64,000 bases of DNA, taken from the human T2T-CHM13v2.0 reference genome, Homo sapiens. The stretch lies in assembly GCF_009914755.1 (NCBI RefSeq), contig NC_060933.1; one strand, 5' to 3'. Below are positions 8,286 to 52,700 of the stretch, piece after piece. The stretch's first letter is position 1, and each line of letters opens with the position of its first letter. A program made the position numbers and the translations under genes. Under the pieces are notes generated by a model, which was not told the DNA's origin, ran no database searches, and saw only the letters and a list, made by a program, of their open reading frames with translations.

Positions 8286-8345
8286 TCCCTGGCCCAGCTC
8301 TGGGTGGTCAGTGGAGCGTGTCCTCCCTGGCCCAGCTCTGGGTGG

Positions 8346-8361
<16 letters not shown>
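8286..8361. repeat. Tandem duplication, 2 x 38 bp, spanning the ABCA2 stop codon
   Basis: tccctggcccagctctgggtggtcag-tggagcgtgtcc and -cagagcgtgtcc; two mismatches. Confidence 0.9.
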
Positions 8362-28575
<20,214 letters not shown>

Positions 28576-31144: not shown

Positions 31145-32426
31145 TCAGGCCTGAAACCAACCCTCAAGGTCCTCATAGACTTGGCTGCGGGGTAGGTGTG
31201 GGTAGCGGTCACAGATGGCACAGAAACGTTCCCGCCAGTCGGTGAACAGTCGCACGCGGAGCCTGTCACGCCAGGCAAAGAAGCGTTGGTATCGGCTCTC
31301 ATTCATGCCAGTGAGGAAAGCCGCCAGCTCTCGGGCTGAGCCAAAGTCATCCACATGCACGAAGGCGTCAGCCGGCACGAAGGCCTCATAGGTGGCCCGT
31401 GGGGGCCCCAGCACCACTGGCACAGTGCCAGCCACCAGTGCGTTGCGCCAGAATTTCTCCGTAATGTAGTCGCGGTGCTGAGAGTTCTCAAAGGACAGGT
31501 AGAAGCGGTACTGGGCCACGGTGGGCACCAGGCAGCTGGCGCACAGTGGCCGTCCATTGGCACGGCCAAAGACATCCACCCGCAGATGAGGCGCCAGCTG
31601 CCGGTACAGCCTGGCACGCAGCTGCCGCTCCTGGAAGTTGCTGACCACCCAGGCGGCCACCCTGCTCTTGGCTGGCAGCGGTGGCGAGGGCCCCCAGTGG
31701 GGCTCCAGGCGGCCATAGGGCACAAAGATGTCCGAGTCGCGCCGGTAGCTCAGCACCCAGTTGAAGATGCCTCGGAGGTGGCTGAGGCCGTGGGTGTGGC
31801 TAGGAGACTCCATGGAGGCCCACACCCAGGGCTGCCCTCGCGGCCGCTGGGCCAGGGGCAGGTGGGACCGCCGGGTCTGCAGCTCGCGGTGGTGGAAGAC
31901 CACGGCGTCGGCGCTGGCCAGCAGGCTTCGGTTGGCACTCAGGTGGCAGCGGGCGATGCCGTAGCGGGTGCAGGTGTCGCTGGGCAGCTCTGGGGGCTGG
32001 TCAGTGAAGGGCCAGTGCCAGACAAGGATGGTGATCGTGGGCTGGGGTGCCGGGGTACCCCGAGGGGCTGACCCCAGCAGCCACAGGAGCCAGAGGGCAG
32101 CGAGCAGAGCCACCCCGGCCAGGACCCCCAAGCCTCGCAGCCTCCGGGTGGGGCCGTGCCCTGCAGCAGCACGAGGGAGGGGAGGCTCTGTCACTTGGGC
32201 TCAGGGACATCCACACGCCCCACTCAGCGCCAACCCCGTCCTCCCCTCCCATGGGCTCAGGGACACCCACATGCCCCACTCAGCGCCACCCCCGTCCTCC
32301 CCTCCCATGGGCTCAGGGACACCGACATGCCCCACTCAGCGCCACCCCCGTCCTCCCCTCCCAGGTTGCCTAGCTGTCCCCAGCTTGGGCCTCCCCGAGG
32401 GCCAGACACTCACCAGCATTATTCAT
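31145..32426 (-). CDS. FUT7: alpha-(1,3)-fucosyltransferase 7 (GT10 family), 342 aa
   Basis: Exons 32414-32426 (ATG AAT AAT GCT G|gt) and 31145-32160; 1029 nt. Type II TM segment, VVFHHRE, WASMESPS and the alpha-1,3-FucT motif YRFYLSFENSQHRDYITEKFWRNAL. Confidence 0.97.
32196..32363. repeat. Tandem repeat, 3 x 56 bp, FUT7 intron
   Basis: Units starting tgggctcagggaca at 32196, 32252 and 32308. Confidence 0.92.
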
Positions 32427-33676
32427 CCACAGTCTCCCAGGATCAGTCAGCCAAGAGACCCGAGATTCTCAAATCACGGCAGCCGCCAGAGGTGCCCCTG
32501 AAATCACAGCTACGCCCTAGCTCAGCCCCGCCTGGAACTGTGCTCCTTTTATCTCTGCCCAAGGTGAGGGAACTCAGGGGACCTTCCTGCTCCTGCCCCG
32601 CCCCTGCCCCCACAACCTTTGGCATCAACCACTGTCCCCACCCCCATCTCGGGGACTTGCTAGTCCTGGGGCTGCTGGGAGGGGTACAGCCACAAGAGGG
32701 ATGCCAAGCCAGGGCAATATGACGCCCCCACAGCCCACCCCACTGGTCTCCAGAGAGGCCCAGAGATGTCCAGCTGGGCAGGCAGAGGACAGAGAGGCTC
32801 GGGCAGGCTTGGCCCAGGGCAGAGAAGGCCCAGGTGCAGGCACCCTGAGCACAGATGGCCCCCCAGCCCCCACCCAGCTACCCAGGCCTGGGCGCTGCAG
32901 ACAGCGAGTGCACTTCCCCAGAGGGCCAGGTGGCTCCTCCCACGGCAGTATCACCCACTTCCCCCAGCTCACCACCAGCTGGGCCCTGGTCTCCCAGGAG
33001 AATCTTACACATTGAAGATGTACTGTGCTCAGCTCTTTGCCGGAAGCTAAAGCTCCCAATTGGGCCATCCCACCCCACTCTGCCACCTCTGCCATCTAGG
33101 AACCCAGATGCCCGGAGAGGAGGTCTGTCCTGGGGCCCTTAGTGTCTTCCCACAGGAGCCCAGCGCGTGCCTGCAAGGGCCTGGTCCCGGAATGAACTGT
33201 GGATGGAGGCTGCTTTGTCCTTTTCCCCGTCCAGATCCATGCCCATAGACACCGCTGACTATAGGCTGGGCCCAGGGTCCCTTCCTCCAGCCTGCAGCAG
33301 AGGGGCTTTCCAGGCTGGAAAGGGAAGGAGTCCTTTTGTCCCTGACGCAAGCGGGTTGGGGGCCAGCACCCGCTCCAGGAAGAGGAAGGGATCCAGCCTG
33401 AAGTCCAGACTCCCCGCTCCCTCTAAGCCAGGGCCTGGAGCCTGGAGGCCAGGTTCCTTCTTCTACACCAGCCCACGTTGGGTGCCAGCCAGGCTGGGAT
33501 GGCCCTGCGGGGTCACCCTGAGCCCCAGCCAACCAACACCCCACTCTCAGCCACAGTGGGAGGCCCCATCAGCCTCTTCACCCAACCACGTTGCCACTCT
33601 GCTGCACGGGACCTTGTGTGGTCCCAGGCGTGGCCAGACCCAGACGTCCTGGAGATCTCAATGCAGGTCAGGCTTG

Positions 33677-34702: not shown

Positions 34703-35538
34703 GCTGGAGGGAGGGGGGCTGGAGGGAGGGGGACTTGGAGGGAGGGGGCTTGGGAGGGGGGCTGGAGAGAGGGGGGTTTGGAGGGAGGGGGGCTGGAGGG
34801 AGGGGGCTTGGAGGGAGGGGGTTTGGGGAGGCTAAAGGGAGGGGAACTTGGAAGGAGGGGGGTTTGGAGGGAGAGGGGTTTGGAGGGAGGGTGGCTTGGA
34901 GGGAGGGGGGTTTGGAGGGAGGGGGCTTGGAGAGAGGGGGGTTTGGAGGGAGGGGGCTGGAGGGAGGGGAGCTTGGAGGGGAGCTTGGAGGGGGTTCGGA
35001 GGGGGGGCTTGGAGGGAGGGGAGTTTGGAGGGAGGGGAGCTTGGAGGGAGGGGGGTTTAGAGGGAGGGAGCTGGAGGGAGGGGAGCTTGGAGGGGAGCTT
35101 GGAGGGAGGGGGTTCGGAGGGGGGACTTGGAGGGAGGGGGCTTGGAGGGAGGGGGGCTTGGAGGGAGGGGGGCTTGGAGGGAGGGGAGTTTGGAGGGAGG
35201 GGGCTGGAGGGAGGGGAGCTTGGTGGGGAGCTTGGAGGGAGGGGAGCTTGGAAGGAGGGGGGTTTGGAGGGAGGGGGTTTGGAGGGAGGGCGGCTTGGAG
35301 GGAGGGGGGTTTGGAGGGGGGGGCTTGGAGAGGGGGGTTTGGAAGGAGGGGACGAGGGAGGGGAGCTTGGAGGGGAGCTTGGAGGGAGGGGGTTCGGAGT
35401 GGGGGCTTGGAGGGAGGGGGCTTGGAGGGAGGGGGCTTGGAGGGAGGGGGGCTTGGAGGGAGGGGGTTTGGAGGGAGGGGGCTGGAGGGAGGGGAGCTTG
35501 GAGGGGAGCTTGGAGGGAGGGGGGTTTGGAGGGAGGGG
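34703..35538. repeat. G/purine-rich minisatellite (GGAGGGAGGGGG-CTT/GTTT variants, units about 12-17 bp)
   Basis: About 835 bp of near-continuous G-runs on the plus strand. Confidence 0.95.
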
Positions 35539-37632
35539 TGCCTGTGGGCGCCACGGGAAACTGTCAGTGCCTGAGCTGCTTGGCTTAGGGGCTGGCACCA
35601 GAGTGGGCAGCTGCCTCCAGCCCCGCCTTTCCAGCCTCCCATGTTTTCGGTGATGACCACAGTGGCACCTGGGCCTTTAATCCCACCGCAGCGTTCCTCC
35701 TCTGGCAGGGGGCCCCCGGGGAGCCACACCTTGGCTTCAGCCTCACACCACCTCATCTCTTCTCCTTGAAACAGACACCCGGCGGCAGTTCCTGCAGGAA
35801 GGAGGCTGTCCTGCCACGCCTGCGGGTGACCCGGCCTCTGGTGCCAGAGCCTGCCATCCTTCCTGTTTGTGCTGCCAGGCTGGCAGGGTCCCTTGCCACC
35901 GACCTCAGCCGCAGCCACAGCCTGCTCCCTCCCTGGGTGGATTTGAAGGAGCCTCCCCCACCCTCCGCCCCTAGCTTGCTCCTTGAGGACCCTGGGCAGG
36001 GTGGCTGCCATGGGGCCCAATCGTGCGTGGGAACCTGCGAGCTGGCAAACGGGGCTCGGGGGTTTTGCCCAGAAATGGGTCAGAACGAAAGCCTCTCAGA
36101 GGAAAGAAAAGGGCATGAGTCAAAGAGAAAGTCGGGGGGCAGGGGCTCCCCCTCATCTCACCCCACCCAGGCCTCCTGACTCCCTGGGTTTGTGCGGACC
36201 CAGGCAGGCAGCCAACCCCAGCTCCGTGGTGTGTGAGCATCGTGATGATCAGGACACAAGCTCTTCCCCGCTGAGCCTTCACTGTGGGCCAGCTTCCCGG
36301 TGGATGCCCACTGAAGAGGCCTCAACCCAGTGGGCCCCACTCCAGACCAAGAGCAGACCATTGGCCAGCTGCCCCCTGCAGACAGCGGCACCCGGGGCAG
36401 CAGCAAGGTGAGGGGCACCCAGCCCCAGCCCCAGGGGCGTCTCAGGGAGCGGGCTGAGCCTGGCTGTCTTCCTGAGCCCCACCTGCTTCATGGGTTGGCT
36501 TGAGCAAGGCAGTCCAGATGCGTGTCTCGAGCGCTCCCTGGCGGCATGCTGCAAAGCTACATGGCTCCGGCAACAAGGAAGACTGCCCTTATTCTCAGTA
36601 ACAGGTTGAGCTGGGGGCTGGAGAGCCCCTCGGACCTCGCCTTGGGAAAGCTGGGTGGGTGCACGGAGCCTGGCAGGTGGCCAAGGGGACCCCCAAGTGG
36701 AGGGATTGGTCGAGGGGCAGCACAGGGTGGTGCAGTGGGTGAGCTCAGCCCCTCCCCTCCAACTCTCATCCCATTGAGCCCCAAGGCGTGGGGGGATCAC
36801 GTCTGTCCTTGTTCTCCTCCAGGTGGAGCTGCTGGGTGGGGCTCTGGTCCTCCAGGGACCCACTCTGCACCCCAAGTTTTGCCGGGACCCGCTCCTCTGT
36901 GTTGTGTGGCTGTAGGGGAGGGCTGCAGCCAGGGACTCTGAACCCGGGGCCGGCCCACCCAGCCACCCAGGGTGGGGAACAAGATCGCCTCCCAGGGCCA
37001 GAAGCTGGGGATGTCCTTGCTTCCTAGGATGTTGGCTAGGGGATCACACGCCCCACATTCTGGGTCAAGCATGGTCCTGCCCCAGCATCTTGCTGGGTTG
37101 GGGGCATCTCTGCACAGATGAGTGCCACCCCAGCGTCTCCGCCAGGGTCTGGGCATGTCACTCTTGGGCATCTGTGCTCAGGAGGTCACCAGGTGTGGGC
37201 AGGGCACCAAGCAGGGAGGTAGCCGAGGCTGGAAGATGCACATCAGTGCCCCGCTGGGCTTCCTCAAGTGGGAACTGGTGGAGGGGGCGCTAGGCTGCCG
37301 GGCCAGGGTCAGCAGGCTCAGGCCGGCTCAGGGCTCAGAGTTGAGCCAGAAACCAAGGTGAAATCTGCCTCTTACTGCCGCCAGGGCCCTTGGGACAGGG
37401 ACAGGAACAGCAGAAGGTAAAGTGGAAAGGAATTGAGTAATGGGCCCCCAGGCAAGGCTGAGCCAGGCCCCAAGCCCAGGATTGGGGTCTCCAGAGTCCC
37501 TGGGGGCCCCAGGGCAGCTCACCCACAGCCTGGGGCCTATGGGAGCAAGGGGGCTCCTGATGGGTGGGGGCAGGAGCTTGGACAAAGTTGAAGGCCTTCT
37601 GTCTGAATTGGCCAGGGGCCAATGAAAGCCAA

Positions 37633-37990
<358 letters not shown>

Positions 37991-38707
37991 CTAGCCCCCT
38001 GCCAACCCTTCCCCAGCTCAGGCCCACCAGCTCCCTTCTCACACAGCTGCTCTGGGAGGGAGTCCTTCCTTGCCAATACCTAAGAGAATGGGCAGCAGGG
38101 ACCCTGAGGACAGGTTGGGGACACCCAGAACAAGAAGAAGATGGGACACACTAGGAGGCTCTTGGGCCCCTGCGTCAGGCCAGCAGGATAGGTGTGTATT
38201 GTGACCTGAGGGACTGAACGTGGAGCTCCAGGGGAACCTCCCAGCCAGTGACACGCTGGCCTTGGGCCAGACGCTGCCCCGCGCCCTTGAGTGACGCTCG
38301 GGCCTCCCTGCACCCACCCGCTTTCCCTGTGGCTAATGGCTTAGAGTGAAGGATGGTGGGCGTGGGCGTGGGCGTGCCACGTGGGCTCAGCGTCCACCCT
38401 GCCCCATGCACGCAGGCACCCATCACACCAGGGCCCACACACAGGCTCCCATCACACCCTGCCCCATCACAGCAGTGCCCAGAGGGACATGGGGCTCCCA
38501 GCTGAGGGCCAGCCCAAGGTCACAGGTGAGGAGTGAGAGGTGAGAGGCAAGGGGGCTTCCTGGTCTGGGTGGGCTGTGGCCCCCAAAACATGTTGCTTAG
38601 GTCAAGCCAGTCTCCCCCAGCAGGGGTGAACAATTTTCCCCCAGCCTGCCTGGCCCACCCTTTCTCCAGGGACGGTGCCCAGTGGGCCTTATCTTCCCCA
38701 TGCCAGG

Positions 38708-40244
<1,537 letters not shown>

Positions 40245-49251: not shown

Positions 49252-49781
49252 ACAAAATTTTTACAAGTAGGTGCTGGGCTGGCTGCCAGCCCGTGGGCTG
49301 TGACCCTCCCCAGTACAGACCCAGACTACACAGAAGGAGCCTCTAAGGGCTGATTCTCAGGACCAAGGCCCCACTCTCTGGAGACCCAGCCCTGAGGAGG
49401 AGGAGGAGGAGCACGGGGCCTGCAGTGATGCCCAGGCTGAAGCGGGCTGGAGGGGTTCAAGGAGCTGGATTGAGCGCTCTTTGCCCACCCAGGCTCCTGT
49501 GGGTACCAGAGTCTCAGTTCCTATTTCCTGGGCTGCCTTAGGGGCAGAGACGCTGAGGGTGGGGTGGAAGGATGGAGAAGACAGTGGTGGGGTGGAGCGG
49601 TGGGGGATAGAGGGTGGGTGGAGGAATGCAGGATACAGGGGCGGGGAGAGAGGTTGGGAGAGGGGTGGGTGGAGGGGTGGGGATACAGGGGTGGGAGGTA
49701 CAGGGGTTGTGGGAGGGGTGGGAGTACGGGGTGGGGATACAGGGGTTGGGGGAGGGATGGGGCAGCTGCCCCCGTCGGCCC

Positions 49782-52700
49782 CTAAATGGTGCTTGGCAGC
49801 TTGGCGGAGTGCACCTGACGCAGCAGCAGGACAAGCGCAGCCAGGAGCGCGGAGGCGAAGAGCAGCAGGAGGACGACCCAGGAGCTGAAGTCTGTGCCCT
49901 TGCGCAGCCCCGGCGGGTCGGCGGGGATCAGGTTGGTCAGGTTCAGCATGTAGCCGAGCGCCCAGCCCACTGCAGTGTCCGCGGCCTGCGGGGAAGGGCG
50001 TGGCCTCAGCTCCCGAGAGGCCCCGCCCCGCAAGGTCGGCCCCGCCCCGCCCCGCCCCAGCCCACCTTCTTCTGGAAGATCACGCCGCCGAAGGCGCGCT
50101 CATCGAAGCCGTAGCCGCGACTCAGCAGCTGCTGCACGAACATGGCCCCGGCGCAGTAGTCGGCCAGGCGGGCCCGTTGCCCTGGCACCCGAGCTTGCAG
50201 CTGGGACGCGGGCGGGACACCATCAGGCAGGCGACCACCAGGAGGTCTCGGCCCCACGGGGAGAGGGGGCCGGCGGCGTGCTTCACCCCTCCCCAGACAC
50301 ACACGGGCCGTGCGAGGCCAGAGACCACCACACAGGCCCGGACACGAATGGCAAGACCGAGTCCGAGGGGCACCCCCGGCAGGGCACGCTTCCATCCCTC
50401 CCCAGCCAGCGCCCATGCCTGGAAGGCCAGTGAGGAGGGACAGCAGGCATGGCCACCAGGGAGCAGGAGGCAGCAACACCTTGGTGTGTGGCCAGGGGAA
50501 CAGGACGAGCTCCAGGCCTGAGTCTGCCCGCTGGCTCGCCGCCTGTCCCCACCTCCCTCACCCCAGTCTGTCTGAGACTAGGCCCTGGGAGGACAAAATG
50601 GGGCCTCGCTCACCACCCCGGTCCTGGGACGACTCGTACGTTTCTCTTGGAGTCTCCGGTGGGCACACTCCCGGTGCCCAGACCCACTTCCATCTTCCCT
50701 TGTGTGGTACCATGGAGGGAACCAGTGGCAGAAGCCAGAAACCTGGGCACCGGCCTCCCCCTGCCCTCCAGATCTGGGATGAGGGTCGGGCCTGGCGAAG
50801 CTTCTCCAACCCGCCCGACTTGTTCACAGCCTACCGGCCACAGCCACGCCACCTCTGGAGTCAGCCTAATGCCTGCCATCGCCCCCACTGCAGCGGGTGC
50901 TCCGAGAGGCCTGTCCATGCAGGGCTGGGGAGGCATGCGGAGGCGGAGGCTGAGCCCTTCCGCACAGCCCTGAAGGAGTGGGAGCGGGGCTCACCTGAGC
51001 CCAGGTCTGGTTGCAGACATTCACTGCGGCTGCCTCCAGCTGCTGCAGGGTGGCCACGGGCAGCCCCATCGAAGTCCGCAAAAAGTCCACAGTGTAGAAG
51101 AAGGCAGAGAAGGCCTGTAGGGGGCGCAGTCACACTGTGACCGAACCCCAGCGGCTCAGAGCACCTGCCGCCACCCGCCTGCCCCTACTCACGACAAAGT
51201 TCCCAGCCACCCGCCTGCCCCTACCCACGACAAAGTTCCCAGCCACCCGCCTGTCCCTACCCACGACAAAGTTCCCAGCCACCCGCCTGTCCCTACCCAC
51301 GACAAAGTTCCCAGCCACCCGCCTGTCCCTACCCACGACAAAGTTCCCAGCCACCCGCCTGTCCCTACCCACGACAAAGTTCCCAGCCACCCGCCTGCCC
51401 CTACCCACGACAAAGTTCCCAGCCACCCGCCTGCCCTTACCCACGACAAAGTTCCCAGCCACCCGCCTGCCCCTACCCACGACAAAGTTCCCAGCCACCC
51501 GCCTGCCCTTACCCACGACAAAGTTCCCAGCCACCCGCCTGCCCCTACCCACGACAAAGTTCCCAGCCACCCGCCTGTCCCTACCCACGACAAAGTTCCC
51601 AGCCACCCGCCTGCCCCTACCCACGACAAAGTTCCCAGCCACCCGCCTGTCCCTACCCACGACAAAGTTCCCAGCCACCCGCCTGCCCTTACCCACGACA
51701 AAGTTCCCAGCCACCCGCCTATCCCTACCCACGACAAAGTTCCCAGCCACCCGCCTGCCCCTACCCACGACAAAGTTCCCAGCCACCCGCCTGTCCCTAC
51801 CCACGACAAAGTTCCCAGCCACCCGCCTGCCCTTACCCACGACAAAGTTCCCAGCCACCCGCCTGCCCTTACCCACGACAAAGTTCCCAGCCACCCGCCT
51901 GCCCTTACCCACGACAAAGTTCCCAGCCACCCGCCTGTCCCTACCCACGACAAAGTTCCCAGCCACCCGCCTGTCCCTACCCACGACAAAGTTCCCAGCC
52001 ACCCGCCTGCCCTTACCCACGACAAAGTTCCCAGCCACCCGCCTGCCCTTACCCACGACAAAGTTCCCAGCCACCCGCCTATCCCTACCCACGACAAAGT
52101 TCCCAGCCACCCGCCTGCCCCTACTCACGACAAAGTTCCCAGCCACCCGCCTATCCCTACCCACGACAAAGTTCCCAGCCACCCGCCTGCCCCTACCCAC
52201 GACAAAGTTCCCAGCCACCCGCCTGCCCCTACTCACCACAAAGTTCCCAGCCACTGGGGGCTGGAAGACCCCATTGAAAGAGCATCGGGAGAAGGGGCAG
52301 GAGGAGAAGCTGAAGAGCCCAGAAACCAGATCTCGGCAGAGGTGGGGGTCACTGCTCCCTGACAGGCTGACCCTGGCACTGCTGTTGAAGTTCTGGGGCC
52401 GCTGGGCCATGGTGCATGGTGACTGGTACACATCCCCGAGCAGCACTTGGGTGGAAAAGCCCCTCGGCCAGCAGGGGTGGAAGCCGTGGGTCTGGGGGAA
52501 TCACCAGCGTGACAGGGTGGCACCACCACCGCTCCAGAGGACCAGCCTGACGAACCTCCCACAGGTCTCACTCTGGCAACTTCACTTTTGTGCTCAGGGG
52601 CAATCCATGGCTCCCCACTGCCTGCTTGACAGATCCCAACGCCCCTGACCAGGCTCCCTCTGAGAGCCGTCCCTGGCCCTCCCTTCTCCAGGCCCAGCCC

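What the first reader, a model, noticed from the sequence alone, without database searches (positions are those of the whole stretch)
51170..52254. ENTPD2 intron 6 is a 30-copy array of its own splice-donor junction, in frame and stop-free
Seen: each 36-bp unit is the last 18 nt of exon 6 (GTGGCTGGGAACTTTGT[G/C]) plus the first 18 nt of the intron (GTG[A/G]GTA[G/A]GG[G/A]CAGGCGG). The true donor GTG|GTGAGT at 52237 is unit 1. Twenty-nine copies follow at 36-nt steps with GTC|GTGGGT, and two keep the full GTGAGT (52129, 51193). The intron is 1122 nt; removing 29 units leaves a 78-nt intron, so the array makes up 93% of it. The exon frame reads VAGNFVV(G/S)(R/K)(G/D)RR through all 30 units without a stop. 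Inference: use of any downstream donor would insert n x 12 basic residues after V343 in the ectodomain between ACR4 and ACR5. Most units contain R-x-R-R, the furin consensus, although Val at P1' is unfavourable. Even if unused, the copies could compete for U1 snRNP, so copy number may tune NTPDase2 splicing or output. All 29 copies share G>C at position -1, which weakens them and may be why the expansion was tolerated.
Basis: partly seen in the sequence, partly recalled or inferred. Interest (0 to 1): 0.82.

Follow-up and report, generated by a model that had tools for sequence, protein, structure and literature searches.

The report
Splice-junction minisatellite in ENTPD2 intron 6
A 36-base piece spanning the end of ENTPD2 exon 6 and the start of the next intron has been copied 30 times in tandem; this is a further example of a known kind of human minisatellite, and its extra splice-site copies are most likely silent.

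Summary
TRF finds one array at 51170-52254: period 36, 30.1 copies, 96% matches, no indels. Unit 1 is the last 18 nt of exon 6 plus the first 18 nt of intron 6. All 29 copies carry C at -1, and 27 also carry G at +4. The exon frame stays open through all 30 units.

The kind is already known. Minisatellites whose first monomer spans an exon-intron boundary are described for F7, IFI6, CBS, LMNB2 and PDGF. In F7 minigenes only the most upstream donor is used.

The majority copy, GTC|GTGGGT, scores below all 65 annotated donors of this window on a rough matrix. No listed RefSeq exon uses an array donor. An open frame is not special here: 4 of 6 frames are open.

Eight units carry a stronger, out-of-frame donor, TGG|GTAAGG. 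The sense strand has 27 G-quadruplex motifs and CpG-island composition.

Best reading: a near-neutral, slippage-born junction minisatellite with silent pseudo-donors. The insertion isoforms, furin sites and U1 tuning are untested. I found no ENTPD2-specific report. Interest is modest.

The parts
52237..52254 (-). Exon-derived half of unit 1: the last 18 nt of exon 6 (codons V338-V343, VAGNFV). It starts with GTGGC.
   Evidence: plus hub annotation (exon 52237-52491). The same 17 nt are invariant in all 30 units.
52219..52236 (-). Intron-derived half of unit 1, holding the authentic donor GTG|GTGAGT (G+1 at 52236).
   Evidence: It scores above 50 of 65 annotated donors of the window on the rough matrix, and above 53 of 65 by U1 duplex energy.
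51175..52218 (-). Units 2-30: 29 copies of the junction. All have C at -1; 27 are GTC|GTGGGT and 2 are GTC|GTGAGT (G+1 at 52128 and 51192). There are five unit types among the copies. The type map of all 30 units is EGTSTKKDDKKKDGTKDGDGKGKGDDDDGS.
   Evidence: The only variable unit positions are 18, 22, 26, 29 and 30.
51440..52052 (-). Span holding the eight 'K' units, whose G>A at unit position 26 creates the donor-like site TGG|GTAAGG. G+1 lies at 52052, 52016, 51908, 51872, 51836, 51692, 51512 and 51440. Using one would extend exon 6 by 36n+4 nt and shift the frame.
   Evidence: second-best donor score in the region, above 18 of 65 (matrix) and 46 of 65 (U1 duplex) annotated donors. The frameshift product stops 37 nt upstream of the last exon junction.
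51170..51174 (-). Partial 31st unit, GTGGC. It is a 5-nt microhomology with the start of the unit in exon 6 (52254-52250).
   Evidence: In the deduced 78-nt intron the two GTGGC lie 36 nt apart, which fits an origin by slipped-strand duplication (inference).
51115..51169 (-). Unique 3' tail of intron 6. It holds the first in-frame stop (TGA at 51132-51130) and the acceptor ...CCCCCTACAG|G.
50995..51114 (-). Exon 7 (A344-Q383, [12 protein letters not shown]...), the acceptor exon for any donor of the array.
   Evidence: plus hub annotation.

Best explanation
This is a G-rich intronic minisatellite of the junction-spanning kind.

Origin. A 36-bp segment covering the exon 6 donor was duplicated. 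The likely mechanism is slippage between two GTGGC words that lay 36 nt apart in an originally ~78-nt intron. The segment then expanded to 30 units by unequal exchange or replication slippage.

Splicing. The array does not code. The spliceosome uses the most upstream donor, GTG|GTGAGT at 52236, for two reasons. It is the first site reached after exon 6, as exon definition or 5'-to-3' scanning would predict and as shown for F7 IVS7. It is also much the strongest site, because every copy carries C at -1 and 27 of 29 also carry G at +4. The copies are therefore silent pseudo-donors, and the effect on NTPDase2 is small or nil.

Shown here: the anatomy, the donor weakening, the absence of annotated use, and the short repeat-free introns at the same position in paralogues. 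Inferred: the slippage origin, silence in vivo, and near-neutrality. Variability between people was not testable here.
For: Anatomy.

Microhomology: GTGGC sits at both ends of the array, and removing 29 units leaves 78 nt.

Paralogues: the two paralogues whose next exon lay within reach of the fetched loci have an intron at the same phase-0 position. They are on contigs 3 and 9 of the same genome, probably ENTPD3 and ENTPD8 (names inferred from position). Their introns are 168 and 183 nt, GT...AG, with no repeat across the junction. The array is therefore an ENTPD2-specific addition to an old, short intron.

Uniqueness: the array DNA matches only its own locus in the window's genome. All 5 matches fall within the array.

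Donor strength, calibrated on the window's 65 annotated donors:
- authentic site: above 50 of 65
- GTC|GTGAGT: above 6 of 65
- GTC|GTGGGT: above 0 of 65

Annotation: none of the 'exons of other transcripts' in the hub's RefSeq table ends in the array.

Rat protein: rat NTPDase2 chains are contiguous across the junction.

Precedent (Borensztajn 2006, PMC1557585; abstract and sections 4, 6, 9, 10 and 12 read): junction-spanning minisatellites exist in F7, IFI6 (6-16), CBS, LMNB2 and PDGF. [quoted passage not shown] Pseudo-sites improved to a consensus value of 91 stay silent. Constructs with 1 to 12 monomers splice alike.

Other checks: Pfam matches only the exon 6 part of the read-through translation. 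There is no Rfam match.
Against: No RNA data could be examined, so 'silent' rests on annotation and analogy.

[quoted passage not shown] So junction arrays are not always silent.

Eight units carry TGG|GTAAGG, which falls within the range of real donors: above 18 of 65 by matrix and 46 of 65 by U1 duplex. In F7, perfect-consensus pseudo-sites did compete, with about 70-90% use.

Both differences between unit 1 and the copy consensus fall in the 9-nt donor core, at unit positions 18 and 22. By my own arithmetic the chance of that is about 0.06, which hints that selection acted against strong copies, so the array may not be fully neutral.

The array also has 117 G-runs, 27 sense-strand G4 motifs and CpG o/e 0.79. 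These features could act on transcription or splicing.

MaxEntScan and SpliceAI were not available.
Confidence: 0.65

Rival explanations
1. First reader's reading. Downstream in-frame copies of the donor are used at a meaningful rate. This would insert n x 12 basic residues ([12 protein letters not shown]...) into the NTPDase2 ectodomain, possibly with furin-type cleavage sites.
For: The frame is open through all 30 units, and any copied junction keeps the exon 7 frame. Predicted products run from 507 to 843 aa. 22 of 30 units hold R-x-[KR]-R. Because the insert is a tandem duplication, VAGNFV is kept directly before AFSAFF, so the local strand context is preserved (inference). In IFI6 and CBS, proximal pseudo-sites are used.
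Against: The in-frame sites are the weakest class: GTC|GTGGGT scores below all 65 annotated donors, and GTC|GTGAGT above only 6 of 65. No listed RefSeq exon ends in the array. The open frame carries little weight, since 4 of 6 frames are open and 68% of shuffled units are stop-free. F7 pseudo-sites identical to the real donor are not used. Pfam sees no domain in the repeat translation. Exon 6 would grow from 255 nt to between 291 and 1299 nt, and long internal exons are disfavoured (recalled exon-definition rule, also discussed).
Confidence: 0.06
2. Leaky use of the eight out-of-frame TGG|GTAAGG donors, and perhaps the 19 TGG|GTAGGG sites, diverts a fraction of transcripts to frameshifted products. 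The number of K-type units would then act as a cis modifier (sQTL/eQTL) that lowers functional NTPDase2.
For: TGG|GTAAGG is the second-best donor in the exon 6 - exon 7 span and lies inside the range of real donors. It occurs 8 times, the nearest 184 nt from the true donor. The frameshift stop lies 37 nt upstream of the last exon junction. By the recalled 50-55-nt rule, such transcripts might escape nonsense-mediated decay and be detectable.
Against: In F7, downstream sites improved to TGG/gtgagt (consensus value 91) or TGG/gtaggt (85) were never used when an upstream site of only 74 was present. Here the upstream site is the strong one. No annotated transcript uses these sites. If they were harmful, their spread to 8 of 29 copies would be unexpected.
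Confidence: 0.13
3. The array acts through its nucleic-acid chemistry rather than its donors. It is a 1-kb block on the sense strand that is rich in G-runs and prone to G-quadruplexes and R-loops. It would change Pol II elongation or act as an intronic G-run splicing enhancer for the upstream donor, in a length-dependent way.
For: The sense strand has GC skew +0.58, 117 G-runs of 3 or more, and 27 non-overlapping canonical G4 motifs in intron 6 against 0 on the antisense strand. The G4Hunter mean is 1.19 in the array against -0.05 in the rest of the gene, and a G4 appears in the minimum-energy fold when G4s are allowed. CpG o/e is 0.79 at 64% GC. Precedent: the TERT intron 6 VNTR6-1 (38-bp unit) forms a sense-strand G4 array, and deleting it changes the TERT isoform ratio (PMC11830802, abstract and passages).
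Against: All of this is composition only. No G4-seq, DRIP or expression data were examined. In F7, mutating the G triplets of the monomers or changing the monomer number did not alter splicing. ENTPD2 was not found in the text-held supplements of four genome-wide VNTR studies (expression, motif and variation maps) or of the human-specific VNTR study. One file in each of two of these papers was not searchable.
Confidence: 0.12

Closest known systems
F7 (coagulation factor VII) IVS7 37-bp minisatellite (Borensztajn et al. 2006, PMC1557585)
   Same: The first monomer spans the exon-intron boundary, so the donor is reiterated down the intron. The unit length is almost the same (37 vs 36 bp). The monomer is G-rich with G triplets, and the intron core GTGGGT is the same as in 27 ENTPD2 copies. 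Physiologically only the most upstream site is used.
   Different: F7 has 5-9 monomers, whose pseudo-sites are identical to the real donor (TGG/gtgggt), and only 4 exonic nt per unit. ENTPD2 has 30 units in this haplotype and 18 exonic nt per unit. Its period is a multiple of 3, so the copies are in frame. Its real donor is stronger than every copy. Splicing of the ENTPD2 array has not been tested.
IFI6 (interferon-inducible 6-16) intron 2 and CBS IVS13 junction minisatellites (as summarised in PMC1557585, section 4)
   Same: These are many-copy arrays of a splice-donor junction: 25 pseudo-sites in 6-16 and 15-20 monomers in CBS.
   Different: [quoted passage not shown] In ENTPD2 the proximal copies carry C at -1 and no such isoforms are annotated. 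I read the summary in PMC1557585 only, not the primary papers.
LMNB2 (100-bp x 10-15) and PDGF intron 4 (81-bp x 16-18) junction minisatellites (PMC1557585, section 4)
   Same: These are junction-spanning arrays in which only the authentic donor is used. That is the behaviour I predict for ENTPD2.
   Different: Their monomers are longer. The mechanisms were not studied, and I did not read the primary papers.
TERT intron 6 VNTR6-1 (38-bp unit; PMC11830802)
   Same: It is an intronic minisatellite of similar unit length whose sense strand carries an expandable G-quadruplex array. It affects splicing of its host gene.
   Different: The TERT array lies about 3.5 kb from the regulated exon and does not contain the splice junction. 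Its effect was shown by deletion and G4 ligands. For ENTPD2 only the sequence potential is shown.

Membership tests
Junction-spanning minisatellite (F7 IVS7 type) | Head-to-tail array with a monomer in the minisatellite size range | tested here: met
   Period 36, 30.1 copies, 96% matches, no indels.
Junction-spanning minisatellite (F7 IVS7 type) | The first monomer contains the exon-intron boundary, so the donor sequence recurs in the intron | tested here: met
   Unit 1 is 18 nt of exon 6 plus 18 nt of intron 6. 29 copies follow in register. The copies differ from the real donor at -1 (29 of 29) and at +4 (27 of 29).
Junction-spanning minisatellite (F7 IVS7 type) | Copy number varies between individuals (VNTR) | not testable with these tools
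   Only one human haplotype is held. No other human or primate assembly could be searched. The interspersed unit types fit ongoing exchange but do not show polymorphism.
Junction-spanning minisatellite (F7 IVS7 type) | Pseudo-donors are silent and the most upstream donor is used | tested here: inconclusive
   The hub RefSeq table lists no exon end inside the array. The 495-aa product uses the donor whose last exonic base is 52237. No RNA reads were available.
G-quadruplex-forming intronic VNTR (TERT VNTR6-1 type) | Sense-strand G4 motifs in each unit | tested here: met
   27 non-overlapping canonical motifs on the sense strand and 0 on the antisense. G4Hunter mean 1.19, with 49% of 25-nt windows at or above 1.2.
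G-quadruplex-forming intronic VNTR (TERT VNTR6-1 type) | G4 formation and an effect on host-gene splicing shown experimentally | not testable with these tools
   This needs G4-seq or ChIP maps, deletion clones or ligands.
Protein-coding VNTR | Repeat units are translated in an annotated product | tested here: not met
   Only 18 nt of unit 1 are coding in the annotated transcript (hub table). Rat NTPDase2 has no insert at the junction. Pfam has no match in the repeat translation.
CpG island (length > 200 bp, GC > 50%, o/e > 0.6; criteria recalled) | Composition thresholds | tested here: met
   1085 bp, GC 64.3%, 59 CpG, o/e 0.79, against 0.44 for the ENTPD2 span. Methylation state is unknown.

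The most novel reading that the evidence does not exclude
The array is a cis-acting dial on NTPDase2 output. Alleles with more units, and especially more K-type units (TGG|GTAAGG), would divert a measurable share of transcripts to frameshifted 36n+4 products. Alternatively they would slow intron 6 removal through U1 decoy binding and G4 or R-loop formation. Copy number and unit composition would then be a hidden sQTL/eQTL for an ecto-ATPase of purinergic signalling. The universal C at -1 would be the trace of selection that disarmed the in-frame copies.
Probability: 0.15. Interest if true: 0.55.

Novelty: new member of a known kind. Interest (0 to 1): 0.33.

Why it matters
If the array is as silent as the F7 precedent predicts, its value is as a natural test case for 5' splice-site choice. 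It offers one strong donor followed by 29 weakened in-frame copies and 8 stronger out-of-frame sites within about 1.1 kb, ahead of a single acceptor.

It is also a practical warning. Short reads will mis-map in this intron, and unit variants can look like common SNPs.

If array length or unit type does change ENTPD2 output, that would add a repeat-based regulatory variant to a gene that controls extracellular ATP/ADP balance. Nothing here shows this.

Tried and rejected
1. 'Stop-free means coding': rejected. 4 of 6 frames are open, and 13,560 of 20,000 shuffled units are stop-free.

2. Structured RNA in the intron: no Rfam match at E <= 1 over 50900-52600. Ordinary folding is unremarkable without G4s.

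3. PRDM9 13-mer hotspot motif (recalled): 18 matches in the window, none in the array, and not above chance since 21 of 100 shuffles reach 18.

4. Dispersed repeat family: the array DNA matches only its own locus in the window's genome. The tool skips very common words.

5. Known protein repeat: Pfam matches only GDA1_CD39 in the exon 6 part, at 23.8 bits, just under the cut-off of 24.9 for this fragment.

6. Print search for this array.
- 'ENTPD2'+'VNTR': 2 papers, one checked and unrelated, the other seen only in the listing.
- 'ENTPD2'+'tandem repeat': 9 papers, none relevant by listing.
- 'CD39L1'+'minisatellite': 0 papers.
- 'NTPDase2'+'splice variant'+'human': 20 papers, listing only.
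- 'ENTPD2'+'intron': 52 papers, 25 listed and 3 checked, all unrelated.
- One search was badly framed, because min_terms 2 let in papers without ENTPD2, and told me nothing.

7. Supplements searched for ENTPD2, and in two of the papers (PMC8275641, PMC11701250) also for a recalled Ensembl id: PMC8275641, PMC10234305, PMC8024321, PMC11701250 and PMC8327921. No occurrence. File 1 of PMC10234305 and file 1 of PMC8327921 were not searchable. Tables that list loci by coordinates alone would have been missed.

8. The STR splicing catalogue PMC10078293 does not mention ENTPD2 in its main text. PMC12776774 has none of my four terms.

10. The structural position of V343/A344 (strand or loop) was not determined. 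The spliced protein may not be typed or joined, so I folded nothing.
Full report
**What is there**

On the minus strand, which is the ENTPD2 sense strand, the sequence from 52254 down to 51170 is one clean tandem array. TRF gives period 36, 30.1 copies, 96% matches, no indels and score 1981. That is the top score among the 21 rows with score >=100 in the whole 64-kb window.

Cut in register from 52254, there are 30 full units and a 5-nt partial unit, GTGGC. Unit 1 is the last 18 nt of exon 6 (GTGGCTGGGAACTTTGTG, codons V338-V343) plus the first 18 nt of intron 6 (GTGAGTAGGGGCAGGCGG).

The 29 copies fall into five types. Only five unit positions vary:

| Unit position | Relative to junction | Bases across 30 units |
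|---|---|---|
| 18 | -1 | G in unit 1, C in all 29 copies |
| 22 | +4 | A in 3 units, G in 27 |
| 26 | +8 | G in 22, A in 8 |
| 29 | +11 | G in 18, A in 12 |
| 30 | +12 | C in 27, T in 3 |

The exon-derived 17 nt are identical in all 30 units.

Intron 6 is 1122 nt. Without the 29 copies it would be 78 nt. Exon 6 is phase 0 and ends at V343. The frame stays open through the array and first stops at TGA 51132-51130, in the unique tail.

- An open frame is weak evidence here. Four of the six frames of the array have no stop, a fifth has three, and 68% of shuffled units (13,560 of 20,000) are stop-free in a given frame. A period divisible by three has a prior of about one in three.
- The copied junctions are poor donors. 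I scored all GT sites between exon 6 and exon 7 with a rough position matrix and with U1 duplex energy, both built from recalled values. I calibrated them on the 65 donors that the hub annotation gives for ABCA2, FUT7, NPDC1 and ENTPD2 in this window, all 65 of which are GT.

| Site | Count in array | Annotated donors it beats (matrix, of 65) |
|---|---|---|
| GTG\|GTGAGT (authentic) | 1 | 50 |
| GTC\|GTGAGT | 2 | 6 |
| GTC\|GTGGGT | 27 | 0 |
| TGG\|GTAAGG | 8 | 18 (46 by U1 duplex) |

- The best pseudo-donors are elsewhere. The G>A at unit position 26 creates TGG|GTAAGG in eight units, 4 nt downstream of the copied junction. Their use would add 36n+4 nt and shift the frame. The resulting stop lies 37 nt before the last exon junction.
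- The sense strand is extremely G-rich:
  - GC skew is +0.58.
  - There are 117 G-runs of three or more.
  - There are 27 non-overlapping canonical G4 motifs on the sense strand and none on the antisense.
  - The G4Hunter mean is 1.19, against -0.05 for the rest of the gene.
  - There are 59 CpGs, with o/e 0.79 at 64% GC.

**Origin**

The unit begins with GTGGC, inside exon 6. The sequence just after the last unit is again GTGGC and then diverges. In the deduced 78-nt intron these two words lie exactly 36 nt apart. That is the arrangement expected for a first duplication by slipped-strand mispairing (inference).

The exon half is the ancestral part:
- Rat NTPDase2 crystal chains read ...PPVAGNFI directly followed by AFSAFYYTVDFL, with no insert.
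- Three paralogues in the same genome end the homologous exon at the same place, at query residue 84 or 85.
- Two of them, on contigs 3 and 9 (probably ENTPD3 and ENTPD8, names inferred from position), have short GT...AG introns of 168 and 183 nt there. Neither has a junction repeat.
- In the third, on contig 10, the next exon lay beyond the 1.5-kb flank.

The array DNA finds only its own locus in the genome. So this is an ENTPD2-specific expansion of an old, short, phase-0 intron.

I could not date it or establish polymorphism. No other human haplotype or primate genome is reachable with these tools.

**How it most likely works**

The class is known. Borensztajn et al. [quoted passage not shown]

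| Gene | Array | Donor use |
|---|---|---|
| 6-16 (IFI6) | 25 pseudo-sites | two proximal pseudo-sites used, plus the authentic donor |
| CBS IVS13 | 15-20 monomers | two pseudo-sites used, plus the authentic donor |
| LMNB2 | 100 bp x 10-15 | authentic donor only |
| PDGF intron 4 | 81 bp x 16-18 | authentic donor only |
| F7 IVS7 | 37 bp x 5-9 | authentic donor only |

Their F7 minigenes show four things:
- The pseudo-sites are functional, but only the most upstream functional one is ever used.
- Raising pseudo-sites to a consensus value of 85 or 91 does not make them compete. Only perfect sites do, at about 70-90% use.
- Constructs with 1 to 12 monomers splice alike.
- Mutating the G triplets changes nothing.

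ENTPD2 is an easier case than F7, because its upstream donor is also the strongest. The hub's RefSeq table lists no alternative exon end within the array. I therefore read the array as a near-neutral minisatellite with silent pseudo-donors (confidence 0.65).

**What keeps the rivals alive**

- IFI6 and CBS do use proximal copies. Both fixed or near-fixed differences between unit 1 and the copies lie in the 9-nt donor core, with a chance of about 0.06 by my arithmetic, post hoc.
- Polarity is unknown. The real donor may instead have been improved from C to G after the array formed.
- The eight TGG|GTAAGG sites are within the range of real donors and may leak.
- The G4 and CpG-rich composition resembles TERT VNTR6-1, a 38-bp intronic repeat that forms a sense-strand G4 array and alters TERT splicing (PMC11830802, abstract and passages).
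- None of these could be tested without RNA, population or chromatin data.
- The in-frame isoform and furin idea is the least likely (0.06). It needs the weakest sites and has no annotated support.

**Novelty**

I found no paper that describes this array (searches; checks). ENTPD2 does not occur in the text-held supplements of five genome-wide VNTR studies. Two files were unreadable, and coordinate-only tables would be missed.

It is a new, or at least undescribed, member of a known kind. Several features mark it out:
- It has 30 units in this haplotype.
- Each unit carries 18 exonic nucleotides.
- The period is in frame.
- The copies are uniformly weakened.
- A second, stronger class of pseudo-donor is spreading inside it.

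Interest is modest (0.33). It is a neat natural substrate for work on splice-site choice and a mapping hazard. It is not a surprise in kind.

Noticed in passing
window 34705-35538: A G-rich 16-bp array (TGGAGGGAGGGGGGCT), 55.8 copies, 75% matches. It lies inside the LINC02908 intron between exons 32433-33666 and 35775-39086 and has the second-highest TRF score in the window (788).
   Followed up: no
window 49557-49762: Degenerate G-rich (plus-strand) repeats of 26, 39 and 53 bp in the ENTPD2 3'UTR. They begin 20 nt below the end of the coding sequence (49782) and are C-rich in the mRNA.
   Followed up: no
window 32196-32363: A 56-bp x 3.0 repeat with 96% matches. It fills 168 of the 253 nt of FUT7 intron 1 (32161-32413).
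   Followed up: no
window 22429-22697: A 20-bp / 85-bp nested array (GTGGGGGCGTGGCTCAGATG, 12.9 copies) in the ABCA2 intron between exons 22309-22419 and 22786-22913.
   Followed up: no
window 8286-8361: A 38-bp x 2.0 duplication with 94% matches. It spans the boundary between the end of the ABCA2 coding sequence (coding part 8346-8381) and the 3'UTR.
   Followed up: no
window 51164-51223: The hub table lists a RefSeq 'silencer' here. It covers unit 30, part of unit 29 and 11 nt of unique flank at the 3' edge of the array. Its experimental source is not given and was not checked.
   Followed up: no
window 52855 (ENTPD2 exon 5 donor): CAG|GTGCCC is the second-weakest of the 65 annotated donors of the window on the rough matrix. 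So the exon upstream of the array has a poor donor, while exon 6 has a strong one.
   Followed up: no
ENTPD2 intron (hg19 chr9:139944588, rs7869655): A table in PMC12191824 lists this common T/C SNP (frequency 0.46) as 'ENTPD2 intron'. By my recalled hg19 gene end it may fall in or next to the array, where G/A unit variants on the sense strand would read as C/T on the plus strand. It may be a unit variant rather than a simple SNP. Unchecked.
   Followed up: no
L008 1755-1923; L009 1315-1497: Paralogue introns at the same phase-0 position are 168 nt (contig 3) and 183 nt (contig 9). They have donors GTG|GTAAGA and TAT|GTGAGC and no junction repeat.
   Followed up: yes
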